This document shows, piece after piece, positions 43,270 to 49,455 of a DNA stretch of 64,000 nt. Each line of letters begins with the position of its first letter. The stretch's first letter is position 1. The position numbers were made by a program, and so were the translations under genes. Below the pieces are notes generated by a model. The model had not been told where the DNA came from. It saw only the letters and a program-made list of their open reading frames with translations, and did no database searches. The stretch lies in the NCBI RefSeq assembly GCF_003019035.1, contig NZ_CP027447.1, one strand, 5' to 3'. The stretch is from Escherichia coli (lineage in GTDB: Bacteria; Pseudomonadota; Gammaproteobacteria; Enterobacterales; Enterobacteriaceae).

Positions 43270-44150
43270 ACACTCCTCGTCAGTATTCTGGCGGCCATTG
43301 CACTTAATCCCGGAGACATGCGGTTGAATGCTGTGCCGGCGGCGTTAAGCTGCCCGGAAACGGTATCCAGAGCACCTGCAATATTTCTTTTGTCCACACC
43401 ACTCAGCGCCGACTGCGCCTGCTGTACATACGTGGCTGCCTCACTGGCTGTTCTGGCCAGACTGATGGCATCGGGCATGGATTCAGAGAGTGCATTAAAC
43501 GCCGGAACACTTTTCCCCAGAGCTCCGGATATATTACCCAGTCCGCTCATCAGTCCCGGCACACGGGTCAGCGCGACAACGGGGTTACCCTTCATTTTCT
43601 GCGCCACCCGAACGGCACTGATAGTGGTCTGGAGTACAGACTGCGCCTGTTTCGCATAGTTGACGCCGTTACGGACGAACTGCGCCACCCCGGAAGGCGA
43701 TGGAACAGCACCAGATACGGCCCCGGCACCGGGAACCTGCCTGCGTATTGCCGGCGGTTGCAGAGGATTTTTCGGGTCACCGGTGTATTCCCGGAGAGAC
43801 ACGGTGGCACTGACAGCCAGCACGTTACCGGTGCTGTCTGTCTGCTCGCTGGTTGCGGTCACATCGGTAATCACGAACCAGCCGCGATAGTCACCGTTGC
43901 CGAAGACCAGCGCCAGTGCCTGATGGGCCTTCATGGCTGTTCGCACTCTCGCCAGCTCCACGTCGGGCACACAATAATGCTGATGGAAGACCAGGCTTAT
44001 CTGGATTTCGTCCAGCCTGTCGCCGACGAACTGCAGGCCGGGTTTACCCTCGATGCGGGCATGCTCCGCATAATCGACGCCAAACGTGGCCTCGAAGCCG
44101 TCCCAGTAGGTAATCAGTTCAAACTCAATATCACCCAGTACGGCAAACAT
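43266..44150 (-). CDS. Tail protein, gpU-like N-terminal domain with Ala/Gly/Ser-rich extension
   Basis: 294-aa ORF immediately downstream of the tape measure gene. Confidence 0.55.
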   Translation of the reverse strand: MFAVLGDIEFELITYWDGFEATFGVDYAEHARIEGKPGLQFVGDRLDEIQISLVFHQHYCVPDVELARVRTAMKAHQALALVFGNGDYRGWFVITDVTATSEQTDSTGNVLAVSATVSLREYTGDPKNPLQPPAIRRQVPGAGAVSGAVPSPSGVAQFVRNGVNYAKQAQSVLQTTISAVRVAQKMKGNPVVALTRVPGLMSGLGNISGALGKSVPAFNALSESMPDAISLARTASEAATYVQQAQSALSGVDKRNIAGALDTVSGQLNAAGTAFNRMSPGLSAMAARILTRSV

Positions 44151-46615
44151 CAGCTGTACTCCTTACGTTGTTTCTGAGCCAGCAGACGCTCCAGCATTTT
44201 TTCCAGCTCATGCAGGCTCATATTCAGGGCACCAGCCAGCCCGGCAGGCGCTGCGGTTTCCTTACCATTGAGGAAAAACTGAGGATTAAAGCTGACCTGG
44301 ATACCGCCAGACGCTCCACCGCCGGTTGCCGTTGCGCCACGGCCTGAATATCCGGCAGCCATGATTTCCGGCGACGGGATACGGGGAACATCCGGTGTCA
44401 TTTCAGCGGCCAGACGCTGCCCGGCCAGTGCAGCAAGCGGAGTGGTCCGTTGCAGGCCAATGGCGGCACCCTGCGCGATATTGTCACCAAAGCCTATAAA
44501 CACGCGACTCGGTGAATGGATGCCCAGCTTTTCGCTGAACCAGTCACTGATGCTGTCACCCATTCCGGTTATGCTGGTTTTCAGTGACTCCCATTTGTTT
44601 CTGATGCCATTTATCAGCCCGTCAATAAGATGACCACCGAAGTCGGTGAATTTCGCCGGCAAATCAACGCCGAGATATTTCAGCGCAGCCGCAAAGGCTT
44701 TATAAAGCAGACCTGCCGGAGACCAGTTAACCAGCAGTTTACCAATTCCCGCGATACCGCCGTTAAAGGCTTCCTGAATGTCAGCCCAGCGCTGTTTAAA
44801 CCAGCTACTGACCGCGCCCCAGTTGCGGTAGATAAGGTAAGCTGCTGCCGCGACGGCGGTGATAGCGAGACCGATGGGATTCATCATCAGCGCCCGGCCA
44901 ATCCAGAGAACGGCACGCCCGGCGCTCATAATTCCGCGAACCAGCCCCCCTGAGAGCACACCCCCCAGTGTTCTGGCTCCTCTGGCGACGGCACCAAAGC
45001 CTGTCACCAGCCAGCGGAGTTTACCGCCTTCCCCCAGTGCGAGCATCAGACGAAGCCAGTTGGCCCGAAGTAAAACAGCATTTTTCCAGACGCTTACAAA
45101 GGGGGAAATAAGGAGATTCAGCCCAAACTTGAGACCGATAGTGGCCATCCTGAAAGCGAGTAATGCGCCCACAACCTTTATGGTGCTGCTGACGAGCTGC
45201 GGATTTGCCGCTATCCATTTGCCGACGCTGTCCATTAAAGGAATAAATGTTTCACCCAACTGGAGCAAAGCCGGACGCAAGGATTGCCCGATGCTGATAG
45301 CAGAATCATTAAAGCCGATCTGCATTCTGCGCCAGCGACCTTCAAGCGTATCATTCTGCTTTGCAGCATCCTTATCCAGGGTAGACATTGCAGCCGGAGC
45401 ATTCATTTCCTGCTTACTGGAAAGGTATTTATCCCAGCCCTGTCGCATTGACAGTAAATGGTTGACAGTCTGAATATCGGTAAAGACCTCAGCCAGACCA
45501 AATGACTCCATGAGTTTCTGCTGACCTTCCTGATCGCCTCTTGCTCCTGCAGCTTTCCATTGCTGCAAAAACGCTTTGCCTTTACTGTCGATAAAACGGT
45601 TGGCAATCATCAGTGAAGCTTCGTACTGCGAAAAACCCTGAGCGACGTAATTCTGCATTGACCCCGGGTAATCCACCCCGGCTTTAGCATATTTCTGGAT
45701 GGTATCTCCGCGGCCCATTGCTGCCAGCCAGTTGGACATATTGGTGACCGCTTCCTCTGCAGAGCCACTACCTTTACCGACCTCCAGACTGGCAACAATC
45801 TGGGTAATCGCATCTTTTCCATAAATACCACGAGCAGCGAAGGCTTTAGCCATACCGGGTAATGCTTTTGCCATATCCTTCAGCTCAAATGACCCAAGTT
45901 TGGCTCCTGTTGCCGCAATACCAAATGCCTGTTCAAGTTCTTTCGCATCAGTGATTCTGAGTGCATCGCTGAAGGCATAAGTCATTTTGGCAAGGTCGGT
46001 CATATCGGCTTTGGTTGCTGTAGCGGTCTTTCCAAGCATCTCTGCAAACGTTGCTGCCCGTTCGGGGGCCATACCATCAGCAACTAATTGTCCGACTCCC
46101 CCTAACAGAGACTCCTGCAGTTGGTTAACCTTCAGCGAGGCCTGTCTGATAGCCAGGCCAATTGCACGTTCCTGTTTTGCATCCAGGTCTCCTGTGACAC
46201 TGATATCCCGTAACTGTGATTCAAACGAGGCATATTGTTTAACCGAGGCCATGACCGGTGCGCCCAGCGTTCTGCCAATAGCATAGGTTTCTGCACCCTG
46301 ACCATAGAGCGCCAGGCGGTTAGCCTTCAACGCATCACCGGTGGCTGATACTGCTGACAGACGGCGCTGCTGACGTTCAATTTGCTCCATGGTGCGGCTT
46401 ACCCGCAGCAACTCGCTGTTGAGATGCTGCATCCGGGAAGAACCCAGTTGACCATAACGTTCTGTTGCCCGGGTTAAGGCATTCTGGCGTTCCTGCAGAC
46501 GGCGGGAGGTATCACCAAGGGAATCAAGGGCGCGTCGGGTGCCACTGACGGCTGAGCGGAAGCTGCTCCCGACAATGCCGCCAATAATGACGCCGACTGA
46601 AAATTCACTGGCCAC
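44150..46615 (-). CDS. Tail tape measure protein
   Basis: 821-aa ORF; long helical/Ala-rich protein with hydrophobic central segments, in the canonical position after the chaperone pair. Confidence 0.88.
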   Translation of the reverse strand: MASEFSVGVIIGGIVGSSFRSAVSGTRRALDSLGDTSRRLQERQNALTRATERYGQLGSSRMQHLNSELLRVSRTMEQIERQQRRLSAVSATGDALKANRLALYGQGAETYAIGRTLGAPVMASVKQYASFESQLRDISVTGDLDAKQERAIGLAIRQASLKVNQLQESLLGGVGQLVADGMAPERAATFAEMLGKTATATKADMTDLAKMTYAFSDALRITDAKELEQAFGIAATGAKLGSFELKDMAKALPGMAKAFAARGIYGKDAITQIVASLEVGKGSGSAEEAVTNMSNWLAAMGRGDTIQKYAKAGVDYPGSMQNYVAQGFSQYEASLMIANRFIDSKGKAFLQQWKAAGARGDQEGQQKLMESFGLAEVFTDIQTVNHLLSMRQGWDKYLSSKQEMNAPAAMSTLDKDAAKQNDTLEGRWRRMQIGFNDSAISIGQSLRPALLQLGETFIPLMDSVGKWIAANPQLVSSTIKVVGALLAFRMATIGLKFGLNLLISPFVSVWKNAVLLRANWLRLMLALGEGGKLRWLVTGFGAVARGARTLGGVLSGGLVRGIMSAGRAVLWIGRALMMNPIGLAITAVAAAAYLIYRNWGAVSSWFKQRWADIQEAFNGGIAGIGKLLVNWSPAGLLYKAFAAALKYLGVDLPAKFTDFGGHLIDGLINGIRNKWESLKTSITGMGDSISDWFSEKLGIHSPSRVFIGFGDNIAQGAAIGLQRTTPLAALAGQRLAAEMTPDVPRIPSPEIMAAGYSGRGATATGGGASGGIQVSFNPQFFLNGKETAAPAGLAGALNMSLHELEKMLERLLAQKQRKEYS

Positions 46616-46707
46616 GGTGGCTATCCTCTGAAAGCAAAAAAACGGAAGGGAAGTGTCTGAACCCCATGCAGAACAGCCGCGACTGGCGGCTGTTAAGTGA
46701 TACGTTG

Positions 46708-46965
46708 TTACTGATTGTCGCCGAACTCGCTTTTGATTTGCTCTTCAGCCTGCTCCAGCCACATCTCCAGATCGTCAGTATCGAGGGCATCAATCTCCCC
46801 CGGCTGAAACCTGAACCATCTCGCCAGCAGGCCCTGCGCCTGCATCAGTGTTTTTGTCGCTCTTGCCCAGCCCAGTGATTTTCTGAAATCGTTTCTGCAG
46901 CTCCATATAGTCGGCAAGATCCATGTTATCGAGGTCTTCCGGGAGGATACCGGTGCTACGGGCAA
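46708..46965 (-). CDS. Overlapping frame of the tail assembly chaperone (frameshift extension product, P2 E+E'-like)
   Basis: 85-aa ORF in the +1 frame, overlapping the 3' end of the 46790..47131 ORF; a GGGGGAG run sits 3 codons before the upstream ORF's stop. Confidence 0.5.
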   Translation of the reverse strand: MPVAPVSSRKTSITWILPTIWSCRNDFRKSLGWARATKTLMQAQGLLARWFRFQPGEIDALDTDDLEMWLEQAEEQIKSEFGDNQ

Positions 46966-47131
46966 TCAGTGGTTCGTCCCAGTCTGCCGGGTCTTTGTTG
47001 ATTTTGCGCACCTGCTTCAGGTCTTTAACTGTCAGGCGTTTCAGTTCAATCTGTTCAATTCTGGTACCTGCAGCAGTGGTGAAAGGATAAGACAGCGTAA
47101 AAGTATCGGACTGGGTCTGTGACATGATCAT
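46790..47131 (-). CDS. Tail assembly chaperone (P2 gpE-like)
   Basis: 113-aa acidic ORF between the tube and tape measure genes. Confidence 0.7.
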   Translation of the reverse strand: MIMSQTQSDTFTLSYPFTTAAGTRIEQIELKRLTVKDLKQVRKINKDPADWDEPLIARSTGILPEDLDNMDLADYMELQKRFQKITGLGKSDKNTDAGAGPAGEMVQVSAGGD

Positions 47132-47222
47132 ACTCCTTTGTAAATTCAGAGCAGTATGTCTGGCGGTGGACGTGACGGATATTAAAGGGGATTAAGAAGA
47201 AGGGGCCGGAGCCCCTGTGATG

Positions 47223-47504
47223 TCAGCAAGTGCGAAAACCCTTGCAGTTACGCAGGAAAGCGATGAGAAGCGCCTTTCCCTCAGATTTGCCGATGCCGGA
47301 GAACCAGTGGTCGGGCGGCTCCCATGCTTCAATCAAATCGGCCAGTTTTCGGGCCTTTGAACGTGTGCAGTCAATCGGGTCATTGGTTTTACGGGTATTA
47401 AAAAGGGTTTCCACCCCCGGAATATCAAGGAGGGTAAACCACGTACCATTTGACATGCCCAGTGACGCACATCGCCCTCCTTTGTCAGTCAGTTCAACAC
47501 TCAC
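47223..47504 (-). CDS. Hypothetical Cys-containing small protein
   Basis: 93-aa ORF between tube and chaperone; no recognisable domain. Confidence 0.35.
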   Translation of the reverse strand: MSVELTDKGGRCASLGMSNGTWFTLLDIPGVETLFNTRKTNDPIDCTRSKARKLADLIEAWEPPDHWFSGIGKSEGKALLIAFLRNCKGFRTC

Positions 47505-47506
47505 CG

Positions 47507-48028
47507 TCAGCCCCCGATATTGATCCGATAGTCAGTCAGTTGATCAACGCCACCGACGCGGAAGATGTTGGCCAGATAGTCCAGTTGCAGCAACTCTTCA
47601 CCATCCAGTACCTGTCTGATATACGTGCAGGTGAAGCTACTGGAGAACTCGGCGTTCTCGTGCTGTTTAAACGTCCCCAGCGGGTTCTTCTTGAACATAA
47701 TTGTCAGGAAGGTGACCAGCGGGATTTCGTCGATCAGCCCCTGCGAGCTGTAGCGCTGGACGCTGGAGCGACACTGCAGCGCCAGCGACCTGTACGGGTT
47801 CGCGGCAGACAGCATCGCATCGCGGTAAAAGCTGTTCCATTTGATTTCGCCTTCCAGTTTGTCAAAACCAGCCGGGAGTTCCACCTTACCCACCATCCCC
47901 AGTGCCTTGTGCTCCTGCATAATCATGGAGACATCGGGGAGTTTAACCTCCTCAGCCCGTCCCAGCAGGTTAGTACCATCCAGATAGATGTTGGCATTCG
48001 TGATTCGGTTTATCTCAATCTTTGACAT
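47507..48028 (-). CDS. Tail tube protein (Mu gpM-like)
   Basis: 173-aa ORF immediately downstream of the sheath gene. Confidence 0.85.
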   Translation of the reverse strand: MSKIEINRITNANIYLDGTNLLGRAEEVKLPDVSMIMQEHKALGMVGKVELPAGFDKLEGEIKWNSFYRDAMLSAANPYRSLALQCRSSVQRYSSQGLIDEIPLVTFLTIMFKKNPLGTFKQHENAEFSSSFTCTYIRQVLDGEELLQLDYLANIFRVGGVDQLTDYRINIGG

Positions 48029-49455
48029 CAGTTGCCCCCTTTCAGGGTTAACAGGTATTCCGAGGTGATCTCAGTCTCAAACGTCAGTCGCTCCAGCGGC
48101 GGTGGTGGCGTATATTTGTAGCTCAGCAACAGGTGCCCGGCGGCCAGCTCCGTTTCCGGATTGCGGGCCGGATCAAACCAGCAACGGAAGCCCAGTACCG
48201 CGCCATCACCAGTCATTTTGCGACCGTAAGCGTTGACCGACTCCGTCAGTGCATCAATCAGCGCCTGAGTAATCGGCATGTCGATGTACTGCTGGCTGAA
48301 GTAACGAATGGACTCATTGATCACATCACCGGTGCGGCGAACGTTCTCAAAGTTACGCATATGGGTGACCGTTGGCCATGCTGCCGTCCGGTTACCCCAC
48401 AGACGAAGGCCGCTGCCGTAACTGCTGAATACCGTGGTGATCCCCTGTTCGTTAAGCAGGTTCACCTCGCTCTGCGGATCGTCAATCATTGCCGACAGCT
48501 GGCGCTCCACGCCGGTGATCCCCAGAATCTCCTGATTGGAGGATGACCACCAGTACCCTTTGTCCAGGTCGACTCTGGCACGCAGGCCCGCCGCACGCTG
48601 GCTCAGTGGCTCCAGACGCTCCGTGTTCGTCACCGGGTCATATACCTTCACATGCGGGTAGCACAGGCGGACACGGTCAGAGCTGGTATTAAAGTTAATG
48701 GTGCCTTCCGGGCCACGTCCCGCCAGAGCCTGCGCAAAAGTGGTACCAACCGGCGCATCAATATAGGTTACTGCTCCCAGTTTCTCAGCCATGGCGATAA
48801 GCTCAACCGAGACGCTGTTCTGGGTGCAGAATACCGGAGCAATCAGGATTTTGGCGAAGTAGCCAAACAGGTTAAAACTGTCGTTAAGCAGCTTCATGCC
48901 GGTACGGTTGCCTGCAGCGTTAACGGTACCGATGATATCAGCCGGGGTGACTTTGGTCGGATCAGCATAGTTATAGCTGGCCTTCACCGTTGCATCTGCA
49001 GCAATGCTTTTACCCAGGTTAGTAATCACCCCGGTCTGTGCATCAAGCGAGTAGTCCTGACCTTCAACATAAGGCTGACCGTCGCTGTCCGGTTTCAGTA
49101 CCAGCTGCGCGACCACCGGATTAGCCAGCCGGGCTCTGCCTGTCGCCTTGTCGAACGACACATTCTCACTGACCACAGCGGTTTTATGCACAGACGGATC
49201 GAGTACGTTAATGACCAGAACGGTGCCTGCACCATGGTCATAAATCGCATCCAGCGCCTGCGGAATGGTAAAGCCGGTGAACTGGCTGCCAAATGCCGCT
49301 GCGTCTTTCTCAGACAGGCACTGTACCAGCGTATTGACATCCCCCATTGGTGCGGTACCAATCAGGCCAATAACGGCAGATTTCACCGTTTTAACCGGGC
49401 GGGCACCGTTTTCCACTTCAATGGTTTCGACGCCATGCAGATAGTTAGCTGCCAT
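48028..49455 (-). CDS. Contractile tail sheath protein (Mu gpL-like)
   Basis: 475-aa ORF in the sheath family. Confidence 0.9.
   Translation of the reverse strand: MAANYLHGVETIEVENGARPVKTVKSAVIGLIGTAPMGDVNTLVQCLSEKDAAAFGSQFTGFTIPQALDAIYDHGAGTVLVINVLDPSVHKTAVVSENVSFDKATGRARLANPVVAQLVLKPDSDGQPYVEGQDYSLDAQTGVITNLGKSIAADATVKASYNYADPTKVTPADIIGTVNAAGNRTGMKLLNDSFNLFGYFAKILIAPVFCTQNSVSVELIAMAEKLGAVTYIDAPVGTTFAQALAGRGPEGTINFNTSSDRVRLCYPHVKVYDPVTNTERLEPLSQRAAGLRARVDLDKGYWWSSSNQEILGITGVERQLSAMIDDPQSEVNLLNEQGITTVFSSYGSGLRLWGNRTAAWPTVTHMRNFENVRRTGDVINESIRYFSQQYIDMPITQALIDALTESVNAYGRKMTGDGAVLGFRCWFDPARNPETELAAGHLLLSYKYTPPPPLERLTFETEITSEYLLTLKGGN

What the first reader, a model, noticed from the sequence alone, without database searches (positions are those of the whole stretch)
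46708..47131. Tail assembly chaperone with a probable +1 programmed frameshift at GGGGGAG
The 113-aa chaperone ORF and an 85-aa ORF overlap in the position where tailed phages make the G/GT or E/E+E' pair. The second frame is +1 (or -2) relative to the first, not the usual -1. A run ccggggga lies three codons before the first ORF's TGA (around 46795-46803), where a Gly-tRNA could shift +1 onto GGG; this would add about 30 residues ending ...LEMWLEQAEEQIKSEFGDNQ.
Basis: partly seen in the sequence, partly recalled or inferred. Interest (0 to 1): 0.5.

Follow-up and report, generated by a model that had tools for sequence, protein, structure and literature searches.

The report
Tail chaperone +1 frameshift, different site
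The two overlapping tail-chaperone reading frames are real and almost certainly joined by a +1 ribosomal frameshift, but at an invariant CGA-TTT-C about 28 codons upstream of the proposed G-run, which makes this a P2 E/E+E'-type pair that shifts forward instead of backward.

Summary
On the minus strand, a tail assembly chaperone gene (47131/47125..46790, Pfam PF10109) overlaps an ORF in the +1 frame that ends at 46708. The pair sits between the tail tube and tape-measure genes of a BcepMu-like (Mu head, P2 tail) E. coli prophage.

In 126 related loci (87 unique sequences, from Enterobacterales to Burkholderia, Ralstonia and Pseudomonas), the second frame is +1 in 125.

The GGGGG run is not the conserved shift site:
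- It exists in only 29 of 85 unique sequences.
- It is reachable from the chaperone frame in only 15 of them.
- The conserved +1 peptide (…GW…LLARWFRFQP…) lies upstream of it.

Stop codons in both frames, plus a conserved +1-frame Trp, confine the shift to about 18 nt around the conserved Phe codon that ends the chaperone domain. That codon is TTT followed by C in 87 of 87 sequences (window 46888..46885), even in GC-rich hosts that prefer TTC.

UUU_Y is a documented +1 shift-prone site in bacteria. The predicted 138-aa product aligns end to end with P2 gpE+E', and its junction falls within 3 residues of P2's −1 site.

This is a new variant of a known kind. It is not annotated as a frameshift in RefSeq or in the BcepMu record. 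There is no experimental proof.

The parts
46790..47131 (-). Tail assembly chaperone gene (P2 gpE-like), frame 0. It is 113 aa from the ATG at 47131. The likely true start is the ATG at 47125 (111 aa), with an AAGGAG Shine-Dalgarno sequence 7 nt upstream.
   Evidence: PF10109 Phage_TAC_7, E=1.5e-22, residues 10-84. phrog_166 'tail protein', 1.7e-32. PGAP calls it 'phage tail assembly protein', 111 aa, in a 99.8%-identical E. coli genome.
46885..46891 (-). Proposed +1 shift site CGA_TTT_C. TTT (Phe82, or Phe80 from the ATG at 47125) is at 46888..46886 and C at 46885. In the model, P-site tRNA-Phe re-pairs from UUU to UUC.
   Evidence: TTTC is invariant in 87/87 unique homologous sequences, while flanking bases vary. 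TTT is only 6-31% of Phe codons in the GC-rich clades. The preceding Arg codon is CGA in 72/72 cases although CGA is 8-20% of Arg codons. Stop codons and the conserved +1-frame Trp confine the shift to about -8..+9 nt around TTT. UUU_Ynn is documented as +1 shift-prone in bacteria (PMC5009743).
46708..46884 (-). E'-like extension in the +1 frame: 58 codons (RKSLGWARATKTLMQAQGLLARWFRFQPGEIDALDTDDLEMWLEQAEEQIKSEFGDNQ) plus TAA at 46710..46708. The predicted fusion is 138 aa (140 aa from the first ATG).
   Evidence: The +1 peptide is conserved in 125/126 loci. phrog_8286, 1e-31. PF06528 Phage_P2_GpE scores 17.4 bits, below the 23-bit cut-off. hhalign of the fused family against P2 gpE+E' gives probability 94%, E=1.5e-7, collinear over 124 columns.
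46797..46801 (-). It arises from +1-frame codons CCG GGG GAG (Pro-Gly-Glu) and is not the conserved shift site.
   Evidence: Present in 29 of 85 unique sequences. Frame 0 reaches it in only 15. Synonymous CCT/CCA/GGA variants break it, and distant clades have CCG AGT GAG.
44150..46615 (-). Tape measure protein gene (821 aa), immediately downstream of the chaperone pair.
   Evidence: PF10145 PhageMin_Tail, 1.6e-15. Annotated as tape measure in relatives.
47507..48028 (-). Tail tube protein gene (P2 FII-like, 173 aa), upstream of the pair.
   Evidence: PF04985 Phage_tube, 2.9e-53.
48028..49455 (-). Tail sheath gene (475 aa).
   Evidence: Annotated as tail sheath in relatives. Position.

Best explanation
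The locus is the gpE / gpE+E' tail assembly chaperone pair of a BcepMu-like myovirus prophage.

Most ribosomes translate frame 0 and make a 111-aa chaperone, which ends in a variable and apparently dispensable tail.

A minority shift +1 at CGA_UUU_C (window 46891..46885). With UUU in the P site, tRNA-Phe (anticodon GAA) gives up its G·U wobble pairing on UUU and re-pairs by Watson-Crick pairing on the overlapping UUC. Translation then continues in the +1 frame from AGA (46884) to TAA (46708).

The result is a 138-aa fusion: the chaperone domain (80 aa) plus a 58-aa E'-like domain. By analogy with lambda G/GT and P2 E/E+E', the shared N-terminal domain would coat the tape measure protein and the rare extension would recruit the tube protein.

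Shown here: the frames, the conservation pattern, the confinement of the shift window, the invariance of TTTC, and homology of the fused product to P2 gpE+E'.

Inferred: that ribosomes actually shift there, the efficiency, and the protein functions.
For: (1) Position and domains fit. The pair lies between the tube and tape-measure genes and carries PF10109.

(2) The E' frame is +1 in 125 of 126 loci spanning several genera of Gamma- and Betaproteobacteria.

(3) The frame of selection switches at the Phe codon. Frame 0 shows synonymous variation up to F. The +1 frame shows it from about +13 nt onward, including an invariant Trp (examples).

(4) Bounds on the shift position:
- A +1-frame TGA lies at -11..-9 nt in 21 of 87 unique sequences, from the Ralstonia-type and Pseudomonas Komp-type clades.
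- Frame-0 stops occur as early as 10 codons after F in the phage Bise clade.
- The conserved +1-frame Trp is only 3-6 residues after F.

(5) TTTC is invariant in 87/87 sequences, while the next amino acid varies among Q, H, L and R, all encoded by C-starting codons. TTT is the minority Phe codon in the GC-rich clades. The product over 7 clades of P(TTT) is 7e-5, and C follows Phe codons only 19% of the time.

(6) UUU_Ynn is described as especially prone to +1 frameshifting in bacteria and as the likely YopN-TyeA site. UCC_UUU_CGU is the influenza PA-X +1 cassette (PMC5009743). BcepMu itself has TCC TTT CGC.

(7) The fused product has the same length and architecture as P2 gpE+E' (138-140 vs 142 aa; PF10109 then PF06528). 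It aligns collinearly with P2 gpE+E' (hhalign 94%). P2's annotated -1 site is GGT TTT TTG at Phe84, and Vibrio phage Valp1 has G_GGT_TTT. Both fall at the Phe codon that ends the chaperone domain, within about 3 residues in the alignment.

(8) No start codon is conserved in the E' frame.
Against: - There is no experimental evidence of any kind: no proteomics, ribosome profiling or reporter data.
- No conserved stimulator was found. There is no downstream RNA structure, no conserved upstream Shine-Dalgarno-like element, and the frame-0 A-site codon (CAG, CAA, CTG or CGG) is not generally rare. Efficiency may therefore be low.
- The residues immediately after the junction are poorly conserved in both frames, so conservation alone does not fix the site to the nucleotide.
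- The match of the extension to PF06528 is below Pfam's gathering score.
- The sequences are phylogenetically related, so the 87/87 count overstates the number of independent observations.
- In the window's own lineage, frame 0 does run through the G-run, so an additional minor shift there cannot be excluded.
Confidence: 0.78

Rival explanations
1. One reading: a +1 (or Mu-like -2) shift of tRNA-Gly on the GGGGG run at 46801..46797, three codons before the TGA, adding only about 29 residues.
For: The run exists and lies in frame 0 in the window. G-runs are shift-prone. Phage Mu, reported to use a -2 shift (PMC2628397, PMC5009743), has a CGGGGGC run 8 codons before the gp41 stop. Some database ORFs are fused exactly at this run (...VSAGEIDALD...), though these look like homopolymer indels or sequencing errors.
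Against: The run is present in only 29 of 85 unique relatives and is reachable from frame 0 in only 15. Close relatives end frame 0 at GTT TAG four codons before the run, and others have CCT/CCA/GGA or AGT in its place. The +1 frame is conserved, with synonymous-type substitutions, for about 25 codons upstream of the run, including in the window's own clade. A product shifted here would lack the conserved GW...LLARWFRFQP segment that aligns with P2 E'.
Confidence: 0.05
2. The second ORF is a separate small gene with its own start. This is how PGAP annotates some copies ('GpE family phage tail protein', 45 aa from ATG) and how the BcepMu record treats gp42. No frameshift is involved.
For: The window has an in-frame ATG (…TL-M-QAQGLL…). 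PGAP annotates this 45-aa ORF in E. coli Ecol_542. BcepMu gp42 is annotated from an internal ATG.
Against: An ATG in the E' frame is absent in about 40% of unique sequences, and where present its position varies; PhiKM-type relatives have ACG there. The +1 frame is conserved upstream of that ATG, with an invariant Trp and Leu. An independent start does not explain the invariant TTTC or the CGA bias. In P2 the homologous segment is annotated as made only as a fusion.
Confidence: 0.08
3. The frameshift is real but occurs at another position or by another mechanism within the permitted window (for example a -2 shift, or a different site in each clade), or the overlap is a decaying remnant with no function.
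For: Conservation cannot resolve the junction to the nucleotide, because the residues just after F vary in both frames. Different lineages of this family demonstrably use different solutions: -1 at A_AAG_GGA in Pasteurella phage AFS-2018a, and -1 at G_GGT_TTT in Vibrio phage Valp1.
Against: Within -8..+9 nt no other shift-prone string is shared between clades. -2 re-pairing from any codon here gives mismatches (sequence). Purifying selection on the +1 frame across many genera argues against a remnant.
Confidence: 0.07

Closest known systems
Bacteriophage P2 gpE / gpE+E' (essential tail genes; -1 frameshift at T_TTT_TTG)
   Same: Same gene position (tube, then E/E', then tape measure). Same Pfam domains in the same order (PF10109 then PF06528). 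Same product sizes (91/142 aa vs 111/138 aa). The fused proteins align collinearly (hhalign 94%). In both, the shift falls at the Phe TTT codon that ends the chaperone domain.
   Different: The direction is +1 instead of -1. The site is the tetranucleotide UUU_C (extended CGA_UUU_C) rather than a heptanucleotide. Frame 0 continues 22-31 codons past the site instead of 6. E' does not overlap the tape-measure start; there is a 92-nt gap.
Phage Mu gp41/gp42-frame pair (-2 frameshift; Xu, Hendrix & Duda 2004, as cited in PMC2628397 and PMC5009743)
   Same: A tail chaperone of a transposable myovirus whose second frame is +1/-2.
   Different: In the present family the G-run is not conserved and lies inside the conserved extension. 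The chaperone here is of the P2 E type.
Lambda gpG / gpGT (-1 frameshift, about 30:1 ratio)
   Same: Same logic: two products share an N-terminus. The chaperone part binds the tape measure and the rare extension binds the tube subunit. Neither product is in the virion (PMC5009743).
   Different: No detectable sequence similarity was tested or claimed. Lambda uses a -1 heptamer and is a siphovirus.
UUU_Y +1 shift-prone sites (E. coli argI error site, Yersinia YopN-TyeA, influenza A PA-X UCC_UUU_CGU)
   Same: A P-site UUU followed by a pyrimidine, allowing tRNA-Phe to re-pair on UUC/UUY, with no need for an adjacent stop codon (PMC5009743). BcepMu's TCC TTT CGC nearly matches the PA-X cassette.
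   Different: Here the site would be used constitutively in a phage morphogenesis gene and is conserved across many genera. The A-site codon is usually CAG, not a rare codon.

Membership tests
Tail assembly chaperone frameshift pair (lambda G/GT, P2 E/E+E' class) | Located between the major tail/tube gene and the tape measure gene, on the same strand | tested here: met
   Tube gene 48028..47507, chaperone 47131..46790, tape measure 46615..44150, all on the minus strand. One extra small ORF (DUF7739) lies between the tube and the chaperone.
Tail assembly chaperone frameshift pair (lambda G/GT, P2 E/E+E' class) | First ORF is a recognised tail assembly chaperone domain | tested here: met
   PF10109 Phage_TAC_7, 79.8 bits against a 25-bit cut-off.
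Tail assembly chaperone frameshift pair (lambda G/GT, P2 E/E+E' class) | Second ORF overlaps the 3' end of the first in another frame, is conserved, and has no conserved start of its own | tested here: met
   The +1 frame holds in 125/126 loci. Selection acts on the +1 frame. An ATG is absent or variably placed.
Tail assembly chaperone frameshift pair (lambda G/GT, P2 E/E+E' class) | Conserved slippery sequence inside the overlap | tested here: met
It is not a canonical -1 X_XXY_YYZ heptamer.
Tail assembly chaperone frameshift pair (lambda G/GT, P2 E/E+E' class) | Two products with a common N-terminus made in a fixed ratio, both required for tail assembly | not testable with these tools
   Requires protein analysis and genetics.
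P2 gpE' extension (Pfam PF06528 Phage_P2_GpE) | Extension scores above the family's gathering threshold | tested here: not met
   17.4 bits (E=0.0032) against a 23-bit cut-off for the window's fusion, and 13.3 bits for the Ralstonia homologue. P2 itself scores 76.3 bits.
P2 gpE' extension (Pfam PF06528 Phage_P2_GpE) | Profile-level homology of the whole fused protein to P2 gpE+E', collinear through the junction | tested here: met
   hhalign probability 94%, E=1.5e-7, 124 aligned columns (3-127 vs 2-135). Shared F.[FW].P.SE[IL]...L....W..A motif.
Mu-type -2 frameshift on a G-run | G-run lying in frame 0 and conserved among relatives that keep the two-frame arrangement | tested here: not met
   G5 is present in 29/85 unique sequences and reachable from frame 0 in 15/85.
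UUU_Y +1 P-site slippage sites | Frame-0 UUU followed by a pyrimidine, so that tRNA-Phe can re-pair on UUY in the +1 frame | tested here: met
   CGA TTT CAG at 46891..46883. TTTC is invariant.
UUU_Y +1 P-site slippage sites | Measured +1 frameshifting at the site | not testable with these tools
   Needs a reporter assay or mass spectrometry.

The most novel reading that the evidence does not exclude
A whole clade of P2-type tail chaperone genes (BcepMu-like and related prophages of Enterobacterales, Burkholderiales and Pseudomonas, present in about 12% of complete E. coli genomes) uses a stimulator-free +1 programmed frameshift at an invariant (CGA_)UUU_C. It sits at the same Phe codon where P2 and Vibrio phage Valp1 shift -1. 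The direction of a programmed frameshift would then have flipped in evolution on one pivot codon. This recoding event is currently unannotated, and in the BcepMu record it is annotated differently.
Probability: 0.45. Interest if true: 0.6.

Novelty: new variant of a known kind. Interest (0 to 1): 0.45.

Why it matters
Tail-chaperone frameshifting is the most widespread recoding event in tailed phages, but nearly all documented cases are -1.

A conserved +1 shift on the minimal UUU_C signal would have three consequences:
- It would add a natural, widespread bacterial example of utilised UUU_Y slippage, without a stop codon or known stimulator.
- It would show that one pivot Phe codon can serve either direction (-1 in P2 and Valp1, +1 here).
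- It would correct annotation. RefSeq/PGAP lists the extension as a separate 'GpE family' or 'head-tail connector' mini-gene, or omits it. The BcepMu record assigns the G/T roles to other ORFs.

Tried and rejected
- 'Site A' (GCA GGG GCT, a G4 run 33 nt upstream of the G5 run) was considered. I rejected it because the window itself has GGG CCT, other relatives have GGG TCT / GGG ACT / AAT GGC GCT, and +1-frame conservation extends further upstream.
- A +1 slip of tRNA-Val at GTT TAG, prfB-like at the early stop, was rejected. That stop is present in only part of one clade, and re-pairing there is poor.
- Searching distant relatives with a 9-sequence alignment failed because no stretch was conserved enough. 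It was replaced by a 4-sequence alignment on genome contigs and three single-protein viral scans.
- A conserved RNA structure downstream of the site was sought with RNAalifold on 14 sequences. It found only a 4-bp helix with no covariation.
- NCBIfam gave no hits, and a PDB sequence-profile search gave no hits.
- I looked for naturally in-frame fused genes as proof of the junction. Fused ORFs exist, but their junctions sit at homopolymer runs (A5, G3, G5) in scattered assemblies. They are most likely indel or sequencing errors and are uninformative.
- Literature: no paper held here describes a +1 shift in BcepMu-like chaperones. Christie et al. 2002 (PMC135442) is not held, and Xu et al. 2004 could not be read, so prior description cannot be excluded.
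- Transcriptional slippage was rejected because there is no homopolymer longer than 3 at the site.

Full report
OBSERVATION

The genes lie on the minus strand. ORF1 runs 47131..46790 and is 113 aa from the first ATG. The ATG at 47125 lies 7 nt after AAGGAG and gives the 111-aa protein that PGAP annotates in a 99.8%-identical E. coli genome. ORF2 is open from 46965 to the TAA at 46710..46708. Codon phases (1 vs 0 mod 3) make it +1, equivalently -2, relative to ORF1.

The G-run is GGGGG at 46801..46797, in the context GCC GGG GGA GAT TGA. A shift there would add 29 residues.

CONTEXT

ORF1 is a Phage_TAC_7 chaperone (PF10109, E=1.5e-22). Upstream lie a P2 FII-type tube gene (PF04985) and a sheath gene. 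Downstream lies an 821-aa tape measure gene (PF10145).

The closest phage records are Escherichia phage PhiKM (classified in Bcepmuvirus) and Klebsiella phage KP12. This is a BcepMu-like prophage, with Mu-like head genes and a P2-like tail. The locus is found in 640 of 5,426 complete E. coli genomes.

ORF2 gives a weak match to Phage_P2_GpE (PF06528), which is the E' part of P2 gpE+E'. It gives a strong match to phrog_8286.

THE G-RUN IS NOT THE CONSERVED SHIFT SITE

I collected 126 homologous loci, which reduce to 87 unique sequences of the region. They come from IMG/VR, GTDB genomes and GenBank phages. Hosts include:
- Enterobacterales: Escherichia, Klebsiella, Salmonella, Citrobacter, Pectobacterium, Brenneria, Dickeya, Lonsdalea, Serratia
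- Burkholderiales: Ralstonia, Pandoraea, Undibacterium, Burkholderia (phiE255)
- Pseudomonas

BcepMu itself was inspected separately.

The E'-like peptide is in the +1 frame in 125 of 126 loci. Pasteurella phage AFS-2018a has it in the -1 frame. Three lines of evidence argue against the G-run:
- In about half of the window's own clade, frame 0 stops at GTT TAG, four codons before the run.
- The run is broken by synonymous +1-frame variants (CCT/CCA GGG, GGA) in some close relatives. It is replaced by CCG AGT GAG (Pro-Ser-Glu) in all other clades. G5 is present in 29 of 85 unique sequences and reachable from frame 0 in 15.
- The +1-frame peptide …S[LR]GWA[RK]ATKTL.QAQGLLARWFRFQP… lies upstream of the run. 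Substitutions in it are synonymous in +1 and non-synonymous in frame 0. For example, GAC AAA AAC ACT / GAC GAA AAC GCT / AAC GAA GAC GCT all read Thr-Lys-Thr in the +1 frame.

A shift at the run would skip this conserved segment.

WHERE THE SHIFT MUST BE

A codon-wise count on 51 ungapped unique sequences shows where selection acts. Frame 0 is under selection up to the conserved Phe that ends the chaperone domain (…LQKRF). The +1 frame is under selection from about 13 nt after it, including an invariant Trp.

Three independent bounds confine the shift:
- In 21 of 87 unique sequences, from the Ralstonia-type and Pseudomonas Komp-type clades, the +1 frame has a TGA at -11..-9 nt from the Phe codon.
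- In the Pseudomonas phage Bise clade, frame 0 stops 10 codons after it.
- In the phiE255 / Pseudomonas Komp clade, the conserved +1-frame Trp is only three residues after it.

If the family shares one site, it lies within about -8..+9 nt of the Phe codon.

In that window the only invariant bases are T-T-T-C, in 87 of 87 sequences. The following amino acid varies among Gln, His, Leu and Arg, but its codon always starts with C. TTT is only 6-31% of Phe codons in the GC-rich clades and 41-50% in the enteric ones. C follows Phe codons in 19% of cases. The product over seven clades of the chance of TTT alone is 7e-5.

Where the preceding residue is Arg (72 unique sequences, four clades), its codon is always CGA, although CGA is 8-20% of Arg codons in these loci. 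In window coordinates the motif CGA_TTT_C is 46891..46885.

MECHANISM

[quoted passage not shown] It is thought to be the YopN-TyeA site, and UCC_UUU_CGU is the influenza PA-X cassette (PMC5009743, read). BcepMu has TCC TTT CGC.

The inferred event has P-site tRNA-Phe (anticodon GAA) moving from UUU (G·U wobble) to the overlapping UUC (G-C). The next codon read is AGA at 46884.

The products would be:
- a 111-aa frame-0 protein, whose tail after the Phe is variable and often truncated
- a 138-aa fusion (80 + 58 aa)

No conserved downstream RNA structure was found, and there is no conserved Shine-Dalgarno-like element. Efficiency is therefore probably low. That would fit this class, since the lambda G:GT ratio is about 30:1 (PMC5009743).

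The invariant CGA may weaken E-site pairing through its I·A wobble. This is speculation.

HOMOLOGY TO P2 gpE+E'

P2's annotated -1 site is GGT TTT TTG at Phe84-Leu85, giving E (91 aa) and E+E' (142 aa). The two fused proteins compare as follows:
- The window's fusion carries PF10109 at 10-86 and PF06528 at 102-134.
- P2 E+E' carries them at 7-85 and 104-139.
- A 19-sequence alignment of predicted fusions aligns with P2 E+E' in one collinear block: probability 94%, E=1.5e-7, 124 columns.
- The window's Phe falls within three residues of P2's slip codons.

Vibrio phage Valp1 reaches its E' frame by -1 at G_GGT_TTT (…KGF|T). Pasteurella phage AFS-2018a does so by -1 at A_AAG_GGA. The family thus keeps the two-product design but changes the direction. 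In P2, Valp1 and the present clade the pivot is the Phe TTT codon at the domain boundary.

RIVALS

- Independent initiation of ORF2 is how PGAP treats some copies ('GpE family phage tail protein') and how the BcepMu record treats gp42. It is unlikely. The ATG is missing in about 40% of unique sequences and moves when present, conservation extends upstream of it, and it leaves TTTC unexplained.
- The G-run model is contradicted as described above. A minor extra shift there in the window's own lineage cannot be excluded.
- In-frame fused ORFs in the protein database have junctions at homopolymers (A5, G3, G5). They look like indel errors, so they decide nothing.

NOVELTY AND LIMITS

Tail-chaperone frameshifting is well known, as is the fact that -1, -2 or +1 can be used (PMC5009743). 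UUU_Y slippage is also known. What appears new is their combination as a conserved, clade-wide +1 site in P2-type chaperones. It is unannotated in RefSeq and annotated differently in BcepMu.

I could not read Xu et al. 2004, Summer et al. 2004 or Christie et al. 2002, so prior description cannot be excluded. All evidence here is comparative, and no protein-level data were available. Hence the verdict: a new variant of a known kind, of moderate interest.

Noticed in passing
window 47223..47504 (minus strand) and hairpin 47201..47216: A 93-aa ORF (DUF7739, PF24881 at 25.7 bits, just under the cut-off; phrog_1239, 5e-48) sits between the tube and chaperone genes. It is followed by a terminator-like GC hairpin with a T-rich tail (AGGGGCTCCGGCCCCT TCTTCTTAAT). 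It is present in the E. coli and Klebsiella relatives but absent in the Salmonella SARB27 prophage, where the chaperone follows the tube directly. It may be a moron-like insertion inside the tail operon.
   Followed up: partly
window 46672..46694 (minus strand), between the E' stop (46708) and the tape-measure start (46615): A perfect 9-bp inverted repeat, AACAGCCGC-CAGTC-GCGGCTGTT, lies in the 92-nt gap. It is followed about 30 nt later by a T7 run just upstream of the tape-measure Shine-Dalgarno sequence and GTG start. In P2 the E' frame overlaps the T gene start instead. Its function is unknown.
   Followed up: no
L130 (BcepMu AY539836, 24602..25363): The BcepMu GenBank record annotates gp41 as 'conserved protein'. 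It annotates gp42 (the E'-frame ORF from an internal ATG) as the 'lambda G' equivalent, and gp43 as an 'alternative gene42 C-terminus produced by ribosomal slippage'. The comparative data here suggest instead that gp41 plus the gp42 frame are the E/E+E' pair, joined at TCC TTT CGC.
   Followed up: partly
L005, L031, L032 (E. coli MLI114-type prophages): Frame 0 of the chaperone has a TAG 11 codons after the Phe codon, and PGAP flags the gene as a pseudogene ('internal stop'). The E' frame is intact and the frame-0 tail is variable elsewhere, so this truncation may be harmless. In MLI114 the neighbouring DUF7739 gene is also frameshifted, so the prophage may simply be decaying.
   Followed up: partly
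proteins P0001-P0010: Public assemblies contain 138-aa in-frame 'fusions' of the two frames, with junctions at the A5 run (…GKSDK|TLMQ…), at a G-rich spot (…ESNQ|ALTQ…) or at the G5 run (…VSAG|EIDAL…). These are probably homopolymer indels or sequencing errors. The G5-run version recurs in several contigs.
   Followed up: partly
L063 (Pasteurella phage AFS-2018a) and L131 (Vibrio phage Valp1): Relatives of the same chaperone family reach the E'-like frame by -1, at A_AAG_GGA two codons before the stop (Pasteurella) and at G_GGT_TTT (Vibrio). Neither frameshift is annotated in its record.
   Followed up: partly
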